DNA of 64,000 nt, from the NCBI GenBank assembly GCA_009377645.1, contig WHTQ01000003.1:21528-85527 (forward strand), in the 5' to 3' direction. This DNA comes from Micromonosporaceae bacterium. GTDB taxonomy: Bacteria; Actinomycetota; Actinomycetes; Mycobacteriales; Micromonosporaceae. Below the pieces are notes generated by a model. That model had not been told where the DNA came from. It saw only the letters and a list, made by a program, of their open reading frames with translations, and ran no database searches. Positions 13,369-20,157 of the stretch are shown piece by piece (position 1 is the stretch's first letter; the number at the start of each line of letters is the position of its first letter). The position numbers and the translations under genes are program-made.

Positions 13369-15228
13369 TCAGCGGGCGGTCTCGGTGGCCCGCAGCTCCC
13401 GGATCACCGTGACCCGGATCTGCCCCGGGTAGGTCAGCTCCTCCTCGACCTGCTTGGCCACGTCCCGGGCCAGCACCGCGGCGCCGATGTCGTCCACCTG
13501 GTCCGGGCACACCATCACCCGTACCTCCCGGCCGGCCTGCATCGCGTACGCCTTCTCCACCCCCGGCTTGCCGGCGGCGATCTGCTCGATCCGCTCCAGC
13601 CGCTTCACGTACGCCTCCAGCCCCTCCCGGCGGGCGCCCGGCCGGCCGCCGGAGCAGGCGTCCGCGGCCTGGGTGAGCACCGCCTCGATGGTCTGCGGCG
13701 TCACCTCGTGGTGGTGCGCCTCGATCGCGTGCACCACCTGGTCCGGCTCGCCGTACCGGCGGGCCACCTCCGCCCCGACCCGGGCGTGCGAACCCTCGGC
13801 CTCGTGGGTGAGCGCCTTGCCGATGTCGTGCAGGAACGCCCCGCGCTTGGTCACCCGCGCCTGCGCCGGGTCCAGCCGCAGCTCGCCGGCCATCAGCCCG
13901 GCCAGGTGCGCGCTCTCCACCAGGTGCCGCAGCACGTTCTGCCCGTAGCTGGTGCGGTAGCGCAGCCGGCCCAGCAGGGTCACCAGCTCCGGGTGCAGGT
14001 CGGTGATCCCGACCTGCACCAGCGCGTCCTCCGCCGCGCGCTGGCACAGCCCGGCCACCTCCTGCTGGGCGGACTCGAAGACCTCCTCGATCCGGTGCGG
14101 GTGGATCCGGCCGTCGGCGACCAGCCGCTCCAGCGTGACCCGGCCGGTCTCCCGGCGCACCGGGTCGAAACAGGACAGCAGCACCGCCTCCGGGGTGTCG
14201 TCGACGATCAGGTTGACGCCGGTCACCGACTCGAACGCCCGGATGTTGCGGCCCTCCCGGCCGATGATCCGGCCCTTCATCTCGTCCGAGGGCAGGTGCA
14301 GGACGCTGACCGCGCTCTCGGTGGTCTGCTCGCTCGCGACCCGCTGGATCGCGTCCACCACGATGTGCCGCGCCCGCTGCTCGCCGGTACGCCGGGCGTC
14401 GGCCTCCAGGTTCCGTACCAGCACCGCCGCTTCCCGTTTCGCCTGGTCCTCGATCGCCGCGACCAGCTCGGCCCGGGCCGCCTCGCCGCTCAACCCGGCC
14501 ACCCGTTCCAGCTCCCGGAGCCGGTGCCGCTCCGACTCGGCCAGCTCGGCCCGCTGCTCGGCGACCGTCGCCGCCTGCGCCGCCAGCTCGGTCTCGGCGG
14601 CGGCCAGCCGCCGCTCCCGTTCCGCCAGCCGCTCCACCTCCGCGGCGTGCCGCCGCTCCCGCTCGTCGTCCCACTTCTCGCGGCGGTCCAGCTCGTGCTC
14701 CCGGCGGTCCAGCTCGGCGGCGTGCTCCCGGGCTGCGGCGGTCAGCGTCGCCGCCTCCCGCTCGCCGGCGCGGTGGGCCGCCACCCGAGCCTGCTCCAGC
14801 TCCCCCTCGGCCTGCCGGTGGGCGCGCTCCAGCACCGTGTCGGCGTCCGCCCGGGCCACCGCCAGCACCCGGGTGGCCTCGGACCGGGCGGTGTCGAGGA
14901 CCCGGGACGCCTCGGCCCGGGCGGCGGCCGCCTCGGCCTGCGCGGCGGCGGCGTCGGTACGGGCGGCGGTGGCGGCCGTGCGGGTCTGCTCGACCGCCGC
15001 GGTCGCCTCGTCGGCGGCGGCCCGCAGCGCGGCGAGCGTCCGTTCCTGGTGCTCCTGCTCGGCGGTGATGGGGCGGTCGGGCTGGCCGGCGGTCCCGGTC
15101 CCGGTGGCCGGGCCGTTCAACCGCTCGGCCAGCCGCCGGATGGTCCGGGCACCCCAGACCACACCCACCGCGGTGACCGCGGTCAGTGCCGTCACGATTG
15201 CGATCAACGCCCACACCGGCCCGGTCAT
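13369..15228 (-). CDS. rny: Ribonuclease Y
   Basis: N-terminal TM (VWALIAIVTALTAVTAVGVVW), a long coiled coil, a KH domain (MKGRIIGREGRNIRAFE), and an HD domain (LHDIGKA...). Start at the Met at 15228, preceded by GGAGGGAG. Confidence 0.9.
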   Translation of the reverse strand: MTGPVWALIAIVTALTAVTAVGVVWGARTIRRLAERLNGPATGTGTAGQPDRPITAEQEHQERTLAALRAAADEATAAVEQTRTAATAARTDAAAAQAEAAAARAEASRVLDTARSEATRVLAVARADADTVLERAHRQAEGELEQARVAAHRAGEREAATLTAAAREHAAELDRREHELDRREKWDDERERRHAAEVERLAERERRLAAAETELAAQAATVAEQRAELAESERHRLRELERVAGLSGEAARAELVAAIEDQAKREAAVLVRNLEADARRTGEQRARHIVVDAIQRVASEQTTESAVSVLHLPSDEMKGRIIGREGRNIRAFESVTGVNLIVDDTPEAVLLSCFDPVRRETGRVTLERLVADGRIHPHRIEEVFESAQQEVAGLCQRAAEDALVQVGITDLHPELVTLLGRLRYRTSYGQNVLRHLVESAHLAGLMAGELRLDPAQARVTKRGAFLHDIGKALTHEAEGSHARVGAEVARRYGEPDQVVHAIEAHHHEVTPQTIEAVLTQAADACSGGRPGARREGLEAYVKRLERIEQIAAGKPGVEKAYAMQAGREVRVMVCPDQVDDIGAAVLARDVAKQVEEELTYPGQIRVTVIRELRATETAR

Positions 15229-15518
15229 GGCCGTCTCCCTCCACCCGTGGCGCGTGGTGACGCGCTGGTCAGTCGCGGGAGCCGCCGCCCGACCCGGACG
15301 GGCAACCGGGATAACGCCGCCCGGCCGGCGCACCGGCTGACCGGGCGTGGGTACACAACGCCGCCGTCGGCTGGGCTCAGCCGGCGACGGCTGTTCTGCC
15401 GCGGAGGATGTGTGCCGCGGCGCGCACTATCGGTAGCTAAGAAGTGTTGCCGTACTGTTACCTGTCTGATCTTGTGCGGTAAGCCCTGTTGTGGTCGGTC
15501 GTACTCCGTGTACTGGCG

Positions 15519-15552: not shown

Positions 15553-16245
15553 CTATCGGCCGGCATCGGCTGGCTCGTCCGGACCGGTGGCGTCGGCCAA
15601 GGCGTCCGGACCGGTGGCGTCGGCCAGGGCGTCCGGGTCGAGCTGGTCGGCCACCGCGGCGGTGCGCTGGTCGGCGGCCAGCGCCTCCTTCACCACCCGG
15701 TAGGCCAGCCCGGCCGGGTAGCCCTTGCGCGCCAGCATCCCCACCAGCCGGCGCACGATCGCCTCGGGCGGGCCGGTGGCGGTACGCAGCCGCCGCTCGA
15801 CCAGCGCCCGGGCGGTCTCGGCCTCGGTCTCGTCGTCGAGCTGGCCGAGCGCCTCGCCGACCGCGTCCGCCGCCACACCGCGCTGGCGCAGCTCGCTGCC
15901 GAGCGCCCGGCGGGCCAGCCCGCGGCCCTGGTGCCGGCTGCTCACCCAGGCCCGCGCGAACGCCGCGTCGTCGATCAGGCCGACCTCGTCGTAGCGGTCG
16001 AGCACCTCAGCCGCTACCCGGTCGTCCACCCCCCGCCGGCGTAGCGCGGTGGCGAGGTCGGCCCGGGTGCGGGGCCGGACCGCGAGCTGCCGCAGGCAGA
16101 TCTCCCGGGCCAGCTCGGCCGGGTCGGGCGGGGGCGACTCGGCCGGGTTCGTGACTGGACCGGCCGGGCGGGCCGGGGCGCGCCGGGCCCGGGGCGGGGC
16201 GGCATCCCAGCCCCGCCCGGTGCGCCCGCGCCGCCGGCCCGCCAT
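15553..16245 (-). CDS. recX: RecA regulator RecX
   Basis: Three-helix repeat architecture (CLRQLAVRPRTRADLATALRRRGV..., AAFARAWVSSRH, LRQRGV...), immediately downstream of recA. Confidence 0.85.
   Translation of the reverse strand: MAGRRRGRTGRGWDAAPPRARRAPARPAGPVTNPAESPPPDPAELAREICLRQLAVRPRTRADLATALRRRGVDDRVAAEVLDRYDEVGLIDDAAFARAWVSSRHQGRGLARRALGSELRQRGVAADAVGEALGQLDDETEAETARALVERRLRTATGPPEAIVRRLVGMLARKGYPAGLAYRVVKEALAADQRTAAVADQLDPDALADATGPDALADATGPDEPADAGR
15577..15630. repeat. 27-bp in-frame tandem duplication in the recX 3' end
   Basis: GTCCGGACCGGTGGCGTCGGCCAAGGC x2 with one mismatch, plus a partial third copy. It encodes the repeated PDALADATG. Confidence 0.9.
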
Positions 16246-16263: not shown

Positions 16264-19200
16264 TCAGAAGTCCACCGGCGGGAGCTGCTGCCCGCCGGCC
16301 TCATCGCTGTTGGCCTGGCCCACGCCCAGCTTCTCCAGGATCTTCTTCTCGACCTCCGCGGCGACGTCCGGGTTGTCCCGCAGGAACGAGCGGACGTTCT
16401 CCTTGCCCTGCCCGAGCTGGTCCCCGTCGTAGGTGTACCAGGCGCCGGACTTGCGGACGATTCCCTGCTCGACCCCCACGTCGATGAGCGACCCCTCGCG
16501 CGAGATGCCCTTTCCGTAGAGAATGTCCATCTCGGCTTGCTTGAACGGGGCCGAAACCTTGTTCTTGACGACCTTCACCCTGGTCCGGTTGCCAACGACA
16601 TCCACCCCGTCCTTCAGGCCCTCGATCCGGCGGACATCCAGGCGGACCGACGAGTAGAACTTCAGCGCCCGCCCCCCACTGGTGGTCTCCGGGCTGTTAT
16701 GCACCATCACGCCGTCGACGAAGTAGCTGTGGTTGCCTTCGACCTCGATGTCGAACCGACGCATCGAGCGGGTCCTCGGCTTGACGTGGATGTCGAGAAT
16801 CTGTGCCGGCACTGGGCGCAGCTCCGTGTTCACGAACTCCGACTCCACGGCGCACCGGCCCCGGAACCCCGGCAGCAGCTTGTACTCCATGGCGGAGGGC
16901 ACATAGGGCGCCACGAGCTTCTGGAACCTGGTCGTAGCTGCGGTCGTGAACTGGAGGACCACCTTCTGCCTCTGCCCGCGCCGGGTCAGCTTGACATCGA
17001 GGTCGTGGGTGTCGCGCAGATACTGGACGAGGCGCTCGCGCGAGCCGGTGCTCATCGCTTCGACGCAGATATCGATCCGCCCGGTGCCGCCCCGGGTACG
17101 CTCCTGCACCCCCCTGGAGCGCACGGTGAAGCAGCCATCGTCCATATACCACACCGCGAGCGCCAGCGGCGTCAGTGCCTTGAGATAGTCCCAGCTGAGG
17201 TGCTTGCGCCCGTCGCCGAGGTAGACCGCCTGGCGCAGCTCGTTCAGCTCGGGCAGTGGCGTGAAGTCGGCGAAGGTCGCGCCCCTGGCGTTCGTGCTGA
17301 TGGTGTGGTCGATGTTTCCCAGCAGCGAGACTTTCCAGTCCAGATAGGGGACTTGCGCGGCACCGTGGCCCATCCGGAAGCGAACCCCGGACCGGCCATG
17401 GGGGTTGGGTGAGATGGCGCCGTCACCCATGAGCGAGCCGAGGATGACTTGCCACTGCTGGTCGCTGAGCCGTCGCGGCTCGGCCAGCATCACCCGATCG
17501 CCGGCGATCAGCTCCCCTGCCTCCCGCCAGCCTCCGGGCGTTCGGACGAGGTGGTTGGCGGTTGCGGCGAACTGTGCCCTGCCGTTGCCGCCGGCCTTCG
17601 CCACCGTGAACTGCAGGAACCGGTCGGCGTTGCCGTTGTCGAACCAGTTGACGATCGGCCGGGGCTCGATCCGGTCCGTCTCCGGGTTGTACGACAGGAC
17701 CTCGACCGCCATTCGCTGGTTGACGATCTTGCCAATCTTCTCCTGACTACCGTCTGCTAGTGTGACCCGCGTGCTGTAAGACATGCACCCGAACATCACA
17801 CCGATCTTCTCCCGGAGTTGGTTGATGAAGATCGCGGTGGTGCCTGAGTTGTTCAGGGCGCCGGTGATCTTCCGCAGCGCTTGGCTCATCAGCCGTGCCT
17901 GCAGGCCGACGTGGGCGTCCCCCATCTCGCCCTCGATCTCGGCGCGCGGCACCAGCGCGGCCACCGAGTCGATGACGATGACGTCCAGCGCACCGGACCG
18001 GACCAGCATGTCCGCGATCTCCAGCGCCTGCTCGCCGGTGTCCGGTTGCGAGACCAGCAGTGCGTCGGTGTCCACCCCGATCGCCTTCGCGTACTCCGGG
18101 TCCAGCGCGTGCTCGGCATCGATGAACGCCGCAATGCCGCCGCTCTTCTGAGCGCTGGCCACCGCGTGCAACGCCAGGGTGGTGTTGTGGGAGAGGATCC
18201 CGTTGGCCAGGAAGCTGTGGGTCTGCGGCACCATCACGTCGAAGGTGGGCTGCTTTCCCACGTCCTCGACGGCGACGACCTCTTCATACGTGTACTCCTG
18301 GGTGGCGAGTGACCGCAGGTGCATGAGGATGCACCGCCCAGAGACCGACAGCGCTCCTAGCCGCCTCTCCCCCCATTCCACGATCTTCGCGAGCCGGGCC
18401 CGGGAGCACGCCAGGTTGAGGTCGGAGCGGAAGAGGTCACCTGCGATCCGGTCGAACTCCCGATCTCCCCCGCAGTCGTCCCGCAGATCCCGGATCAGGT
18501 CCGCCAGGTGCGGGATGTTCTCGAACCGGGCATCGAACCGGCTGCGCCGGAAGTTTCGGTCGACCTGCGCCCGGCGGCGCGCCGACCGGAACCCGACCTC
18601 ATCCAGGAAGCGATGGGCGACGGCCTGGTTTATGGCGACGCTCCAGTAGTAGCGCTGGTAGTCCTCGTTCCACTTCGAAGCGACCGTTACCGGCAGGCCC
18701 AAGCCGTACAACATGAGCTGGACCTCGCGTGCAAGCTGCTCGGAGGCGGTGCCCAGACCGATCTTCGAGCTGGGGTCGATCCACCCGTCGCCCTCGAACA
18801 GTGCCGACAGGAACGCCCGCTGCGCCTTGTGCCCGGCCGTACGCACCCGATAGGGCACCGTCTTGCCGTGCGCGGTCACGTAGTCGAGCCCATACTCGGT
18901 CGCGAACCGCTCCCGGAGCCGCACGCTGTGAACGGCAAACTCCTTGTTGTCGTAGTTACGGACGTCCACCCCAAACAGCTGCTCCATCAAGCGGCAGTAC
19001 TCGCCGCTGACTTCCGGATCCCAGTTGGTGAAGCGGACGGCCGTCTTCGACGACAGCGAGCCCTCGGCGACGAGGTAACCCAGCAGCACCGCCTCGTCCT
19101 CGGAGAGGCCGTCGCCGGCCGCCGCTTCCACCGCACCGAACCGGGCGGAGACGACGAAGTCACCGGGTCGGATCTCACCCACCGTGCGCCAGGCGATGTG

Positions 19201-19692
19201 ACCGCGCTCGGTCATCACCCGCAGCGGGTGGTTGCTGGTCGCGGTGACCGTGCGTCCGGAGCGGAGCGTCAGCCTGGTCACGGGCTTGCGGTTGTTGTGG
19301 GTCAGCGCGGCGACCGGCTCCAGCTCTCCCCGCTCGTTCACCACCCGAACCCCGAGCTCAGAGACATCGGTGATCCGGCTGGTGCAACTCGCCGGCTGGC
19401 CGCACCGTGCGAACAGCTCCGCCACCGTCTCCAGACCACGATCTGTCCACAGATAGCTATCCGCTGTTAGGCACTTTCCCCCAGCCTCAGGTCCGTATAT
19501 CTCCACCACCCGGCCGCGCGGCAGGCCGCCCACCCCGAGGGCGATGTCGAGCGCGATCGAGCCGGTGGGGATCACCCGCATCTGCACCGCCGGCCGCTCG
19601 CCCAGCCGCATGATGGAGCCCTTGCCGTACTGCTTGTCGATCTGCGCCAGCGCGAGCTCTAGCGCCTTCTCCTTGTCGGGCACTGCTGCCAT
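16264..19692 (-). CDS. recA: RecA recombinase precursor interrupted by two inteins (spliced product ~348 aa from Met 19692, or 366 aa from GTG 19746)
   Basis: The exteins are colinear with RecA: [25 protein letters not shown]...GPEAGGK | [12 protein letters not shown]...[12 protein letters not shown] | [23 protein letters not shown].... The ATG at 19692 follows GGAGCAGGAGCGG and gives a canonical N-terminus. Confidence 0.95.
16696..17787 (-). mobile_element. Intein 2 (364 aa) with LAGLIDADG homing-endonuclease domain, at the GVMFG|SPETT (RecA-b type) site
   Basis: Cys1 ([14 protein letters not shown]), block [19 protein letters not shown] motifs [11 protein letters not shown] and [12 protein letters not shown]-terminal [10 protein letters not shown], and Ser at +1. 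As far as I remember it, it closely resembles the M. leprae RecA intein. Confidence 0.92.
18184..19473 (-). mobile_element. Intein 1 (430 aa) with LAGLIDADG homing-endonuclease domain, inserted in the RecA Walker A loop between Lys and Thr
   Basis: Cys1 (CLTADSYLW), block [19 protein letters not shown] motifs [11 protein letters not shown] and [13 protein letters not shown]-terminal [10 protein letters not shown], and Thr at +1. The codons were checked in the sequence (TGC at 19473..19471, AAC at 18186..18184). Confidence 0.9.
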
Positions 19693-19752
19693 GGTCGCCG
19701 CTCCTGCTCCTGCCGCACTCTTGGTCGTCGTCGGTTTCTTCGCCACGCGGAC

Positions 19753-19775
19753 ACGGTAGGCGCCCGGTCCGACAA
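19753..19775 (-). promoter_or_regulatory. Candidate RecA/LexA-independent DNA-damage promoter (RecA-NDp / PafBC-type) proximal to recA
   Basis: Minus strand TTGTCGGAC-N8-TACCGT fits tTGTCRgtg-N8-TAnnnT. Its position argues that the GTG at 19746 is not the start codon. Confidence 0.4.
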
Positions 19776-19844: not shown

Positions 19845-19882
19845 GAAGGGGGCGACGCGCCGGAGACCTGAACCCGGCTCAG

Positions 19883-19960
19883 TGCCGCCGGTTCGCTCCA
19901 GCGCTCACTGCCGCCGGTTCGCTCCAGCGCTCACTGCCGCCGGTTCGCTCCAGCGCTCAC
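19883..19960. repeat. 26-bp perfect tandem repeat x3 spanning the DUF3046 stop codon, upstream of the recA promoters
   Basis: The unit TGCCGCCGGTTCGCTCCAGCGCTCAC starts at 19883, 19909 and 19935. A diverged partial copy follows inside the gene end. On the minus strand each unit starts with TGA. Confidence 0.95.
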
Positions 19961-20157
19961 TGCAGCCGGGCCGGCACCCGGTCCGGGTAGGCGGCGACCA
20001 CCGCCTGCCAGACCTTCCTGGTGGCTACCCCGGCGGCCAGCGCCTCGGTGATGGTCCGGCCGCCCAGCTGCGACAGGACCTGGTCCCGGGCCACGCTGGC
20101 GGCGTACCCCGGACCGAAGACCTGCTCCAGCCGGGCCCAGAAGTCGGTGCTCCTCAC
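19957..20157 (-). CDS. DUF3046 domain-containing protein (conserved recA-upstream gene, Rv2738c-like)
   Basis: 66 aa, TDFWARLEQVFGPGYAASVARDQVLSQLGGRT. The GTG start overlaps the MFS stop (GTGA). Confidence 0.8.
   Translation of the reverse strand: MRSTDFWARLEQVFGPGYAASVARDQVLSQLGGRTITEALAAGVATRKVWQAVVAAYPDRVPARLQ

What the first reader, a model, noticed from the sequence alone, without database searches (positions are those of the whole stretch)
18184..19473. Intein 1 splits the RecA Walker A loop exactly between the catalytic Lys and Thr
Seen: the junction is GPEAGGK|CLTADS...SHN|TTLALH, so the ATP-binding P-loop does not exist until splicing occurs. The restored P-loop GPEAGGKTT also differs from the canonical bacterial GPESSGKTT at two positions.

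Known: P-loops are recurrent intein insertion sites. As I recall it, archaeal RadA inteins (for example Pyrococcus horikoshii RadA) sit at the homologous GK|T position with Thr at +1.

Inference: this may be an independent or laterally acquired invasion of the same structural site in the bacterial orthologue. The SS-to-AG change might reflect co-adaptation of the extein to the intein or its homing site. I cannot tell whether this insertion allele has been catalogued.
Basis: partly seen in the sequence, partly recalled or inferred. Interest (0 to 1): 0.75.

Follow-up and report, generated by a model that had tools for sequence, protein, structure and literature searches.

The report
Known P-loop intein in actinobacterial RecA
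This is a real self-splicing protein insert that interrupts the ATP-binding loop of the DNA-repair protein RecA, but this insertion site, this intein family and even the two-intein arrangement were already described in 2015, so it is an ordinary further example.

Summary
recA (window 16264..19746, minus strand) carries a 430-aa intein at exactly 18184..19473. Its junction is GPEAGGK|CLTADS…LSHN|TTLALH, between the Walker A Lys and Thr. A second intein sits at the classic RecA-b site.

The intein looks intact. It keeps all splicing residues and both LAGLIDADG catalytic acids, and its AlphaFold2 model is confident (pLDDT 93.9).

It is not new. Topilina et al. 2015 (PMC4513877) catalogued this RadA/RecA insertion point as "c" (c1 in archaeal RadA, c2 in bacterial RecA). 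They list Thermobifida fusca RecA with both c2 and b inteins. I found the same-site intein in 80 actinobacterial species genomes, and at least 35 of them also carry the b intein.

The idea that the SS-to-AG change is co-adaptation to the intein is not supported. The closest intein-free RecAs (91–95% identical, Natronosporangium clade) already read GPEAGGKTT or GPEASGKT. Of 80 intein-bearing alleles, 68 keep GPESSGK and none has AGGK.

The nearest relatives outside Actinomycetota also sit at GK|T/S in Walker A loops: enterobacterial phage and phage-sized-plasmid RecA, Herelleviridae phage helicases, and unidentified RGxGK and DnaB-like proteins. Archaeal RadA inteins are not close. Interest is low.

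The parts
16264..19746 (-). recA precursor ORF (1160 codons from GTG 19746). The real start is probably ATG 19692, giving 1142 aa. It contains two inteins, and the spliced product is a RecA of 348 to 366 aa depending on the start codon.
   Evidence: Homologues start at MAAVPDKEK. GGAG lies 9-12 nt upstream of ATG 19692.
19474..19746 (-). N-extein, ending in the first half of Walker A (…[10 protein letters not shown]). The Lys(-1) codon is 19474..19476.
18184..19473 (-). Intein 1 (430 aa) at RecA insertion point c2. Cys1 codon 19471..19473; Asn430 codon 18184..18186.
19114..19473 (-). Intein 1 HINT N-lobe (aa 1-120): block A Cys1 and block B T79-x-x-H82.
   Evidence: Invariant columns; beta-strand region in the AF2 model; matches to the Mxe GyrA intein.
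18583..19113 (-). Intein 1 LAGLIDADG homing-endonuclease core (aa 121-297). Motifs are LLGYLVAEG (E137) and LSALFEGDG (D229); K204/P207 are conserved.
   Evidence: Pfam LAGLIDADG_3 5.6e-18; alignment; Foldseek hits to the TliVMA intein, PI-PfuI and I-DmoI.
18298..18582 (-). Intein 1 helical domain (aa 298-392) between the endonuclease and the HINT C-lobe. Much of it (about aa 320-392) is missing from the 356-366-aa relatives shown.
18184..18297 (-). Intein 1 HINT C-lobe (aa 393-430): block F TFDV (D412) and block G SHN (H429, N430).
17788..18183 (-). Middle extein (RecA core). It starts with Thr(+1), codon 18181..18183, the second half of Walker A (TTLALH…), and ends with …KIGVMFG.
16696..17787 (-). 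Intein 2 (364 aa) at the RecA-b site: GVMFG|CMSYST…VMVHN|SPETT, with a LAGLIDADG_2 endonuclease.
   Evidence: The same site is listed as 'b' in PMC4513877.
16264..16695 (-). C-extein (SPETTSGG… to the stop codon), including the RecA C-terminal domain.
15553..16245 (-). recX immediately downstream. This shows the locus is the normal chromosomal recA-recX-rny locus.
   Evidence: Pfam RecX_HTH1/2/3; synteny with Natronosporangium hydrolyticum CP070499.

Best explanation
Intein 1 is a canonical class 1 intein that carries a LAGLIDADG homing endonuclease. It belongs to the already described RecA 'c2' family, which sits between the Walker A Lys and Thr. The host is a Micromonosporaceae bacterium close to Natronosporangium.

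Inferred mechanism, from the established intein pathway:
1. The precursor has no functional P-loop.
2. Cys1 makes an N-S acyl shift at the Lys(-1)-Cys1 bond.
3. Thr(+1) attacks the thioester to form the branched intermediate.
4. Asn430, helped by His429, cyclises and releases the intein.
5. An O-N shift joins …GGK to TT…, creating GPEAGGKTT and an active RecA.

At the DNA level, the endonuclease would cut intein-free recA alleles at the Walker-A-coding sequence, and repair would copy the intein in (homing). That would explain why the intein is present here but absent from 95%-identical relatives.

The AG P-loop is an inherited trait of this RecA clade and is unrelated to the intein.

Shown here: the anatomy, the conservation of catalytic residues, family membership, distribution, and the intein-independence of AG. 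Inferred: actual splicing and endonuclease activity.
For: - Exact in-frame insertion whose removal restores RecA.
- Intein and LAGLIDADG profile hits.
- C1, T79, H82, D412, H429 and N430 are invariant or nearly invariant across the family. The LAGLIDADG catalytic positions E137 and D229 are acidic (D/E) in every sequence.
- AF2 model with pLDDT 93.9 and pTM 0.92 shows HINT, LAGLIDADG and helical domains. Its best PDB match is the TliVMA intein (TM 0.72), followed by PI-PfuI and PI-PkoII.
- About 100 homologous clusters, all in RecA, and every one whose junction could be read is at GK|C…HN|T.
- 80 species genomes carry the same junction, including Micromonospora lutea (80% identity) and Thermobifida fusca (50%).
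- Full-length 34% identity to the enterobacterial phage/plasmid RecA intein at residues 65-486. These are the coordinates published for the 'E. coli' c2 intein.
- Publication of site c2 and of the c2+b double intein (PMC4513877). The K|T position is called the 'classic' P-loop insertion in PMC5050341.
- Intein-free nearest relatives carry GPEAGGK or GPEASGK and have the same DNA at the site.
Against: - No experiment was done. Splicing competence and endonuclease activity are inferred from conserved residues only.
- GC3 of the intein (0.87) is only slightly below the extein (0.92), and there is no clear co-conversion tract. Recent homing cannot therefore be told apart from old vertical inheritance with precise losses in relatives.
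- Identity to M. lutea is similar for intein 1 (79.5%), intein 2 (78.3%) and the extein (86.5%), which is compatible with vertical descent.
- The exact precursor protein is not on record in the collection, so the source organism is inferred from RecA similarity and synteny only.
Confidence: 0.92

Rival explanations
1. The SS-to-AG change in the P-loop is a co-adaptation of the extein to the intein or to its homing site.
For: Residues -3 and -4 lie next to the splice junction, and flanking residues are known to influence splicing rates (general intein knowledge). Non-SS P-loops (EGSGK, EASGK, ESGGK) occur in 12 of 80 intein-bearing alleles.
Against: - 21 clusters of intein-free RecA from the nearest clade already have GPEAGGK (11) or GPEASGK (10).
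- The intein-free allele L084 has almost the same nucleotides at the site, GAGGCTGGGGGGAAG|ACG versus GAGGCTGGGGGAAAG|ACC.
- 68 of 80 intein-bearing alleles are GPESSGK and none is AGGK.
- The closest intein relatives (M. lutea, M. sediminimaris, P0002 and P0003) sit in SS P-loops.
Confidence: 0.04
2. The intein was acquired laterally from an archaeal RadA c1 intein, so the RadA and RecA P-loop inteins form one lineage.
For: Same structural site (PMC4513877). There is weak sequence similarity to the Pho RadA mini-intein (E=2e-5 over about 50 residues).
Against: - The Pho RadA match (26.6 bits) is weaker than the matches to PI-PkoII (51 bits) and Mxe GyrA (43 bits), which sit at unrelated sites.
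- None of the full-length hits whose junctions I parsed (84 of the best 150, out of 1.84 billion representatives) has a GEFGSGK|…|TQ RadA-type junction. They are bacterial or phage RecA, phage helicases, RGxGK proteins and a DnaB-like protein.
- Topilina et al. found 'little similarity' between c1 and c2 and concluded that the invasions were independent.
Confidence: 0.05
3. The intein has been retained as a conditional switch: splicing, and hence RecA ATPase activity, is gated by stress. This is not exclusive of the main explanation.
For: Conditional splicing is shown for the Pho RadA c1 intein at the same site and is proposed for P-loop inteins in general (PMC4513877, PMC4760082). The family persists widely in Actinomycetota, often together with the b intein.
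Against: - Nothing in the sequence tests it.
- Presence/absence polymorphism between 95%-identical RecAs, apparently intact endonuclease motifs and decayed or shortened copies in other lineages all fit a selfish homing cycle.
Confidence: 0.15
4. The interrupted recA is a decaying pseudogene or an assembly artefact, and the insert no longer splices.
For: Some family members in MAGs carry stops or frameshifts inside the intein (L065, L069, L070).
Against: - The window ORF is uninterrupted for 1160 codons.
- All catalytic intein residues are present.
- The extein is 95% identical to functional-looking RecAs.
- The locus is the syntenic recA-recX-rny locus.
- No second recA was seen in the part of the window examined.
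Confidence: 0.02

Closest known systems
Thermobifida fusca YX RecA inteins (Q47RS6: c2 at 96-517 plus b at 650-1006), Topilina et al. 2015, NAR 43:6631, Table 1
   Same: An actinobacterial chromosomal recA with one intein at the Walker A K|T site and a second at the GVMFG|SPETT site. The T. fusca locus (L068) has junctions EIYGPESSGK|CLTADT…LSHN|TTVALH plus a b intein. Its intein is homologous end to end with the window intein (50% identity).
   Different: - The window intein is 430 aa versus 422 aa.
- The host P-loop is GPEAGGK versus GPESSGK.
- The host is a Natronosporangium-like Micromonosporaceae.
- The closest relatives are the Micromonospora lutea, M. sediminimaris and Plantactinospora inteins (78-80%).
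Enterobacterial phage and phage-sized-plasmid RecA c2 intein ('E. coli RecA intein', residues 65-486 in PMC4513877; e.g. Escherichia phage Cyrano, Klebsiella phage vB_KpnS_p4727, ~110-kb Enterobacter/Klebsiella/E. coli plasmids)
   Same: Same K|T junction (GPPSAGK|CVTADT…ISHN|TFLAT). Full-length homology includes the endonuclease and helical domains (34% identity, E about 1e-62). The same catalytic residues are present.
   Different: The host gene is a divergent RecA carried by phage and ~110-kb plasmid records, not the chromosomal recA. The sequences are much more divergent and low in GC.
Pyrococcus horikoshii RadA intein (insertion point c1; PDB 4e2u, 2lqm)
   Same: Same structural site at the end of the P-loop of the archaeal RecA orthologue (literature). 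It is also a class 1 intein with Cys1.
   Different: It is a 172-aa mini-intein without an endonuclease. Similarity to the window intein is only marginal (26.6 bits over about 50 residues). The published and present evidence favour independent invasion.
Herelleviridae phage DNA-helicase inteins (Enterococcus phage 156 gp046, Bacillus phage BSP18 gp104)
   Same: Inserted at GK|T of the helicase Walker A loop (VSTGGGK|CLTADT…VNHN|TEIASG). Full-length 29-31% identity to the window intein.
   Different: The host protein is not orthologous (a phage helicase), and the hosts are Firmicutes phages.
Thermococcus litoralis VMA intein (PDB 7qss), PI-PfuI (1dq3) and PI-PkoII (2cw7)
   Same: Best structural matches to the AF2 model (TM 0.72, 0.63 and 0.66). 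All have the HINT plus LAGLIDADG two-domain architecture with an extra domain.
   Different: These are archaeal inteins in V-ATPase, RNR and DNA polymerase, with 15-20% sequence identity.

Membership tests
Class 1 (canonical) intein / HINT domain | Cys or Ser at intein position 1 | tested here: met
   Cys1 (codon 19471..19473). It is invariant in the alignment.
Class 1 (canonical) intein / HINT domain | Block B T-x-x-H | tested here: met
   T79-S-N-H82. Both residues are invariant.
Class 1 (canonical) intein / HINT domain | Block F Asp and block G penultimate His plus terminal Asn | tested here: met
   D412, H429, N430; NCBIfam intein_Cterm 3e-6.
Class 1 (canonical) intein / HINT domain | Cys, Ser or Thr as first C-extein residue | tested here: met
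   Thr(+1), which is the Walker A Thr.
Class 1 (canonical) intein / HINT domain | In-frame insertion whose removal restores a contiguous conserved host protein | tested here: met
   The spliced extein aligns without a gap at the junction to 347-aa intein-free RecAs (95% identity).
Class 1 (canonical) intein / HINT domain | Autocatalytic protein splicing | not testable with these tools
   Needs expression of the precursor and detection of ligated exteins.
LAGLIDADG homing endonuclease (intein-associated, two-motif) | Two LAGLIDADG motifs, each with a catalytic acidic residue | tested here: met
   LLGYLVAEG (E137) and LSALFEGDG (D229). Pfam LAGLIDADG_3 5.6e-18. Both positions are acidic (D/E) in every sequence.
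LAGLIDADG homing endonuclease (intein-associated, two-motif) | alpha-beta-beta-alpha-beta-beta-alpha pseudo-dimer fold | tested here: met
   AF2 model with pLDDT 93.9. Foldseek matches I-DmoI/I-Tsp061I over the endonuclease core and full-length intein endonucleases.
LAGLIDADG homing endonuclease (intein-associated, two-motif) | Site-specific cleavage of the intein-free allele | not testable with these tools
   Needs a cleavage assay on recA DNA of the L084/L085 type.
RadA/RecA insertion point c, bacterial subgroup c2 (Topilina et al. 2015) | Insertion in recA between the Walker A Lys and Thr | tested here: met
   GPEAGGK|C…N|TT. Same junction as T. fusca L068 and the phage Cyrano RecA 65-486.
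RadA/RecA insertion point c, bacterial subgroup c2 (Topilina et al. 2015) | Sequence homology to the published c2 inteins | tested here: met
   50% identity over 1-430 to the T. fusca intein. 34% identity over 1-430 to the enterobacterial phage/plasmid RecA intein.
Archaeal RadA c1 intein lineage | Closer sequence relationship to RadA c1 inteins than to inteins of other hosts or sites | tested here: not met
   Pho RadA mini-intein scores 26.6 bits, versus 51 (PI-PkoII) and 43 (Mxe GyrA). No RadA-type junction among the 84 parsed full-length hits of the best 150. Caveat: full-length RadA c1 inteins were not compared directly.

The most novel reading that the evidence does not exclude
The GPEAGGK and GPEASGK P-loops of the Natronosporangium-clade RecAs might have arisen as homing-site escape alleles under pressure from c2 inteins. 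The window intein's endonuclease would then have re-adapted to cut the AG allele, giving a host-parasite arms race played out inside a catalytic loop.

A weaker, more likely corollary: the c2 family is a single 'P-loop specialist' lineage that has hopped between non-orthologous ATPases (RecA, phage helicases, RGxGK proteins, a DnaB-like protein) at the GK|T position.
Probability: 0.07. Interest if true: 0.5.

Novelty: already known. Interest (0 to 1): 0.12.

Why it matters
It matters little beyond annotation.
- The gene should be annotated as an intein-containing recA with c2 and b inteins, probably starting at ATG 19692, and not as a fusion or a pseudogene.
- The window adds one more host lineage (Natronosporangium-like Micromonosporaceae) to a widespread, published intein family.
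- It provides a natural pair of intein-plus and intein-minus alleles at about 89% DNA identity. That pair could serve for homing or splicing experiments with a non-canonical AG P-loop.
- All close relatives, in RecA, in phage helicases and in unidentified RGxGK and DnaB-like proteins, sit at GK|T/S. This supports the published view of the P-loop as an intein hot spot and hints at transfer between non-orthologous hosts.

Tried and rejected
1. Co-adaptation of the AG P-loop to the intein. Rejected from intein-free relatives and from 80 intein-bearing alleles.
2. Co-conversion tract as evidence of recent homing. Sliding-window DNA identity to intein-free L084 dips only modestly 3' of junction 1 and 5' of junction 2. 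The same regions are also variable in L085. The odd codons 5' of junction 1 (ATA, GGA, GCT, GGG) are shared with the intein-free allele. No evidence.
3. Compositional signature of transfer. Intein GC3 is 0.87-0.88, extein 0.92, neighbouring genes 0.94-0.96. This is too small a difference to interpret.
4. Exact look-up of the precursor protein to name the source organism. Not on record. The organism is inferred from RecA similarity and synteny.
5. Canonical SOS box GAAC-N4-GTTC. None in the whole window.
6. Literature search for 'RecA-c' or 'Tfus RecA' names. Nothing useful beyond PMC4513877.
7. NJ tree of 85 family inteins. Helicase, RGxGK and DnaB-like inteins fall among the RecA inteins, but the tree is star-like, without support values and midpoint-rooted. 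I use it only as a hint.
8. Direct comparison with full-length archaeal RadA c1 inteins could not be done, because none was retrievable with the remaining tools.
Full report
**Observation.** The minus-strand ORF 16264..19746 encodes 1160 residues that match RecA in three separate pieces (Pfam RecA 1.5e-126; NCBIfam RecA equivalog 1.7e-154). Mapping the protein onto the DNA places a 430-residue insert at residues 92-521, which is window 18184..19473. The junctions are [10 protein letters not shown]|CLTADS and ANGILSHN|TTLALH. A second insert of 364 residues (16696..17787) lies at GVMFG|CMSYST…VMVHN|SPETT. Removing both leaves a RecA of 348-366 residues, depending on the start codon. It is 95% identical to intein-free 347-aa RecAs and aligns across junction 1 without a gap. 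The insertion point cannot be shifted: the insert begins with Cys and the following extein begins with Thr.

**What the insert is.** It matches Pfam Intein_splicing (3e-15) and LAGLIDADG_3 (5.6e-18), plus the NCBIfam intein N- and C-terminal models. In alignments with relatives, the splicing residues are invariant or nearly so: Cys1, Thr79/His82 (block B), Asp412 (block F) and His429-Asn430 (block G). The +1 residue is Thr. Both LAGLIDADG motifs keep their acidic residue (LLGYLVAEG with E137; LSALFEGDG with D229), and a conserved Lys204/Pro207 is present.

An AlphaFold2 model built on 32 sequences is confident (mean pLDDT 93.9, pTM 0.92). It shows a beta-rich HINT domain (residues 1-110 and 394-429), an alpha/beta endonuclease core (125-292) and a helical domain (298-391). 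Its best PDB matches are full-length intein endonucleases: the T. litoralis VMA intein (TM 0.72), PI-PfuI and PI-PkoII. PI-SceI and the free-standing I-DmoI follow. Everything fits a canonical, apparently intact class 1 intein with a homing endonuclease. Splicing and cleavage themselves are inferred, not shown.

**Locus and organism.** recX follows recA (15553..16245), then RNase Y (13369..15333). An MFS transporter gene and a short ORF precede recA. Natronosporangium hydrolyticum CP070499 has the same gene order: MFS, DUF3046, recA, recX, rny. The nearest exteins come from metagenomes (95%) and from Natronosporangium (91-92%), followed by other Micromonosporaceae (84-90%). The exact precursor is not on record. 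This is the ordinary chromosomal recA of a Natronosporangium-like actinomycete.

**Is it known?** Yes.
- Topilina et al. 2015 (PMC4513877) define five RadA/RecA insertion points. Point c lies in the P-loop and is occupied by archaeal RadA inteins (c1, including P. horikoshii) and bacterial RecA inteins (c2). [quoted passage not shown]
- Their Table 1 lists Thermobifida fusca YX RecA with b (650-1006) and c2 (96-517), which is the same two-intein layout as here. It also lists E. coli, Enterobacter and Salmonella RecA proteins with c2 at 65-486.
- Kelley et al. 2016 (PMC5050341) call insertion between the invariant Lys and the Thr the 'classic' P-loop intein insertion.
- Novikova et al. 2016 (PMC4760082) document the P-loop as a general intein hot spot.

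**Distribution found here.**
- A protein search with the intein returned about 100 clusters, all but the weakest in RecA. Wherever the junction could be read, it was GK|C…HN|T.
They include Micromonospora lutea (80%) and M. sediminimaris (78%); Nocardiopsis, Streptomonospora, Allonocardiopsis, Nostocoides, Intrasporangium, Pseudonocardia and Thermobifida fusca (50%); and MAGs labelled Streptosporangiaceae, Nitriliruptor, Euzebyaceae and Acidimicrobiia.
- All 80 have …GK|C at the N-junction. Every copy that reads through to its C-terminus has HN|T[TS]. At least 35 also carry the b-site intein and 17 clearly do not.
- Against M. lutea, the window shows 79.5% identity for intein 1, 78.3% for intein 2 and 86.5% for the extein, with identical intein lengths.

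**The AG P-loop.**
- Among the 120 closest RecAs, 99 have GPESSGK.
- The 21 exceptions are essentially the nearest relatives, the Natronosporangium clade. All are intein-free (347-392 aa) and read GPEAGGKT[TS] (11 clusters) or GPEASGKT[TS] (10 clusters).
- The DNA of the intein-free allele L084 at the site is TACGGACCGGAGGCTGGGGGGAAG|ACGACCCTGGCG. The window reads TACGGACCTGAGGCTGGGGGAAAG|ACCACCCTGGCG. The unusual codons are shared.
- Conversely, 68 of 80 intein-bearing species alleles are GPESSGK, 6 are EGSGK, 5 are EASGK, 1 is ESGGK and none is EAGGK.

The AG variant is therefore a clade trait that exists without the intein, and the intein family mostly lives in SS P-loops. The homing-site DNA varies considerably among occupied alleles, so the endonucleases are either tolerant or have co-diverged with their targets.

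**Relatives outside actinobacterial recA.**
- tblastn against phage and plasmid collections finds full-length matches (34% identity, E about 1e-62) in the RecA genes of ~108-111-kb Escherichia and Klebsiella phages and ~106-114-kb enterobacterial plasmids. The junction is GPPSAGK|CVTADT…ISHN|TFLAT at residues 65-486, which are the coordinates published for the 'E. coli' c2 intein.
- Next come inteins in Herelleviridae phage helicases (29-31% identity), at VSTGGGK|CLTADT…VNHN|TEIASG.
- An exhaustive HMMER search of 1.84 billion representatives gave 183 hits below 1e-30. I parsed 84 full-length hits among the best 150. Nearly all have a GK|C…HN|[TS] junction. Most are in RecAs of widely varying divergence. 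Others are in phage/plasmid-type RecAs, phage helicases, proteins with RGxGK|…|SF junctions, and one DnaB-like protein. One helicase intein sits two residues upstream (G|SGKS).
- No RadA-type junction appears among them. The Pho RadA mini-intein matches only weakly (26.6 bits), less than PI-PkoII or Mxe GyrA.

This agrees with the published conclusion that the archaeal and bacterial invasions of this site were independent. It also suggests, without proving, that one endonuclease-bearing lineage has moved among non-orthologous Walker A loops. A rough NJ tree places the helicase, RGxGK and DnaB-like inteins among the RecA inteins.

**How it got here.** Present here and absent from 95%-identical RecAs is what a homing cycle predicts. 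But I found no co-conversion tract and only a small GC3 difference (0.87 versus 0.92). The similar divergence of both inteins and the extein from M. lutea fits vertical descent with precise losses equally well. I leave this open.

**Verdict.** However, the insertion allele, its P-loop position, the independent-invasion inference and the double-intein architecture have all been in the literature since 2015, and the family is common in Actinomycetota. The one specific new idea, SS-to-AG co-adaptation, is contradicted by the comparative data. This is a further instance of a known family, of low interest.

Noticed in passing
window 16696..17787 (-): Second intein in the same recA (364 aa, LAGLIDADG_2 endonuclease) at the RecA-b site GVMFG|C…HN|SPETT, the site of the M. 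leprae-type intein. At least 35 of 80 species genomes with the c2 intein also carry a b intein, so the double arrangement is common.
   Followed up: partly
window 19877..19969: A 26-bp tandem repeat (3.6 copies, 97% matches; unit GTGAGCGCTGGAGCGAACCGGCGGCA on the minus strand) sits in the spacer upstream of recA. It starts at the stop codon of the short upstream ORF (19957..20157, -), so the 3' end of that ORF appears to have been duplicated. By synteny with N. hydrolyticum that ORF is DUF3046-like.
   Followed up: partly
window 19692..19774 (-): The upstream region has TGTCGGAC-N8-TACCGT (19774..19753). From memory, this resembles the actinobacterial RecA-NDp (PafBC-type) DNA-damage promoter. 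No GAAC-N4-GTTC SOS box occurs anywhere in the window. The listed GTG start (19746) lies about 7 nt after the -10-like hexamer. Homologues start at the ATG at 19692, which has GGAG 9-12 nt upstream, so the true start is probably 19692.
   Followed up: partly
relatives P0022, P0026, P0027, P0030, P0034, P0035, P0047 and others; window intein residues ~320-392 (18298..18516): Many c2 inteins are only 356-377 aa. In the two short variants aligned (366 and 356 aa), most of the helical domain between the endonuclease core and the HINT C-lobe is missing. These look like natural partial deletions on the way to mini-inteins. The window copy is the full 430-aa form.
   Followed up: partly
L065, L069, L070 (MAG contigs): These c2 inteins contain in-frame stops or frameshifts. 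They are either decaying copies or long-read assembly errors.
   Followed up: no
L008 (JBOHRZ010000447.1, 2-kb contig of a 'Gemmatimonadales' MAG): This contig carries a c2 intein 70% identical to the window's, with typical actinobacterial recA flanks (EIYGPESSGK…TTVALHAVAN). It is most likely a binning contaminant rather than a Gemmatimonadota host.
   Followed up: no
P0227 (representative library): A phage-helicase intein of the same family is inserted two residues upstream in the Walker A loop (LHLSTG|C…INHN|SGKSF), with Ser at +1. This looks like a site shift within the same P-loop.
   Followed up: no
P0145, P0169, P0186, P0217, P0120 (1500-1850 aa) and P0129: Large multi-intein proteins with RGxGK|C…SHN|SF junctions, and a GKPGVGK|C…NHN|TSLALN (DnaB-like) protein, carry full-length relatives of this intein. 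Their host proteins were not identified.
   Followed up: no
P0245 (Mycobacteroides abscessus 'recombinase A', 566 aa): The top-scoring extein hit contains an internal duplication of most of RecA (the sequence restarts at …GRVIEIYGPESSGKTT). It is probably an assembly or annotation artefact.
   Followed up: no
P0001 (Plantactinospora sp. ZYX-F-223 'recombinase RecA', 705 aa), also P0006, P0009 and P0016: Several database RecA entries appear to begin at or near the first residue of the c2 intein. The N-extein has probably been lost from the annotation because the gene start was called inside the intein. Such truncated calls would hide the P-loop junction in keyword surveys.
   Followed up: no
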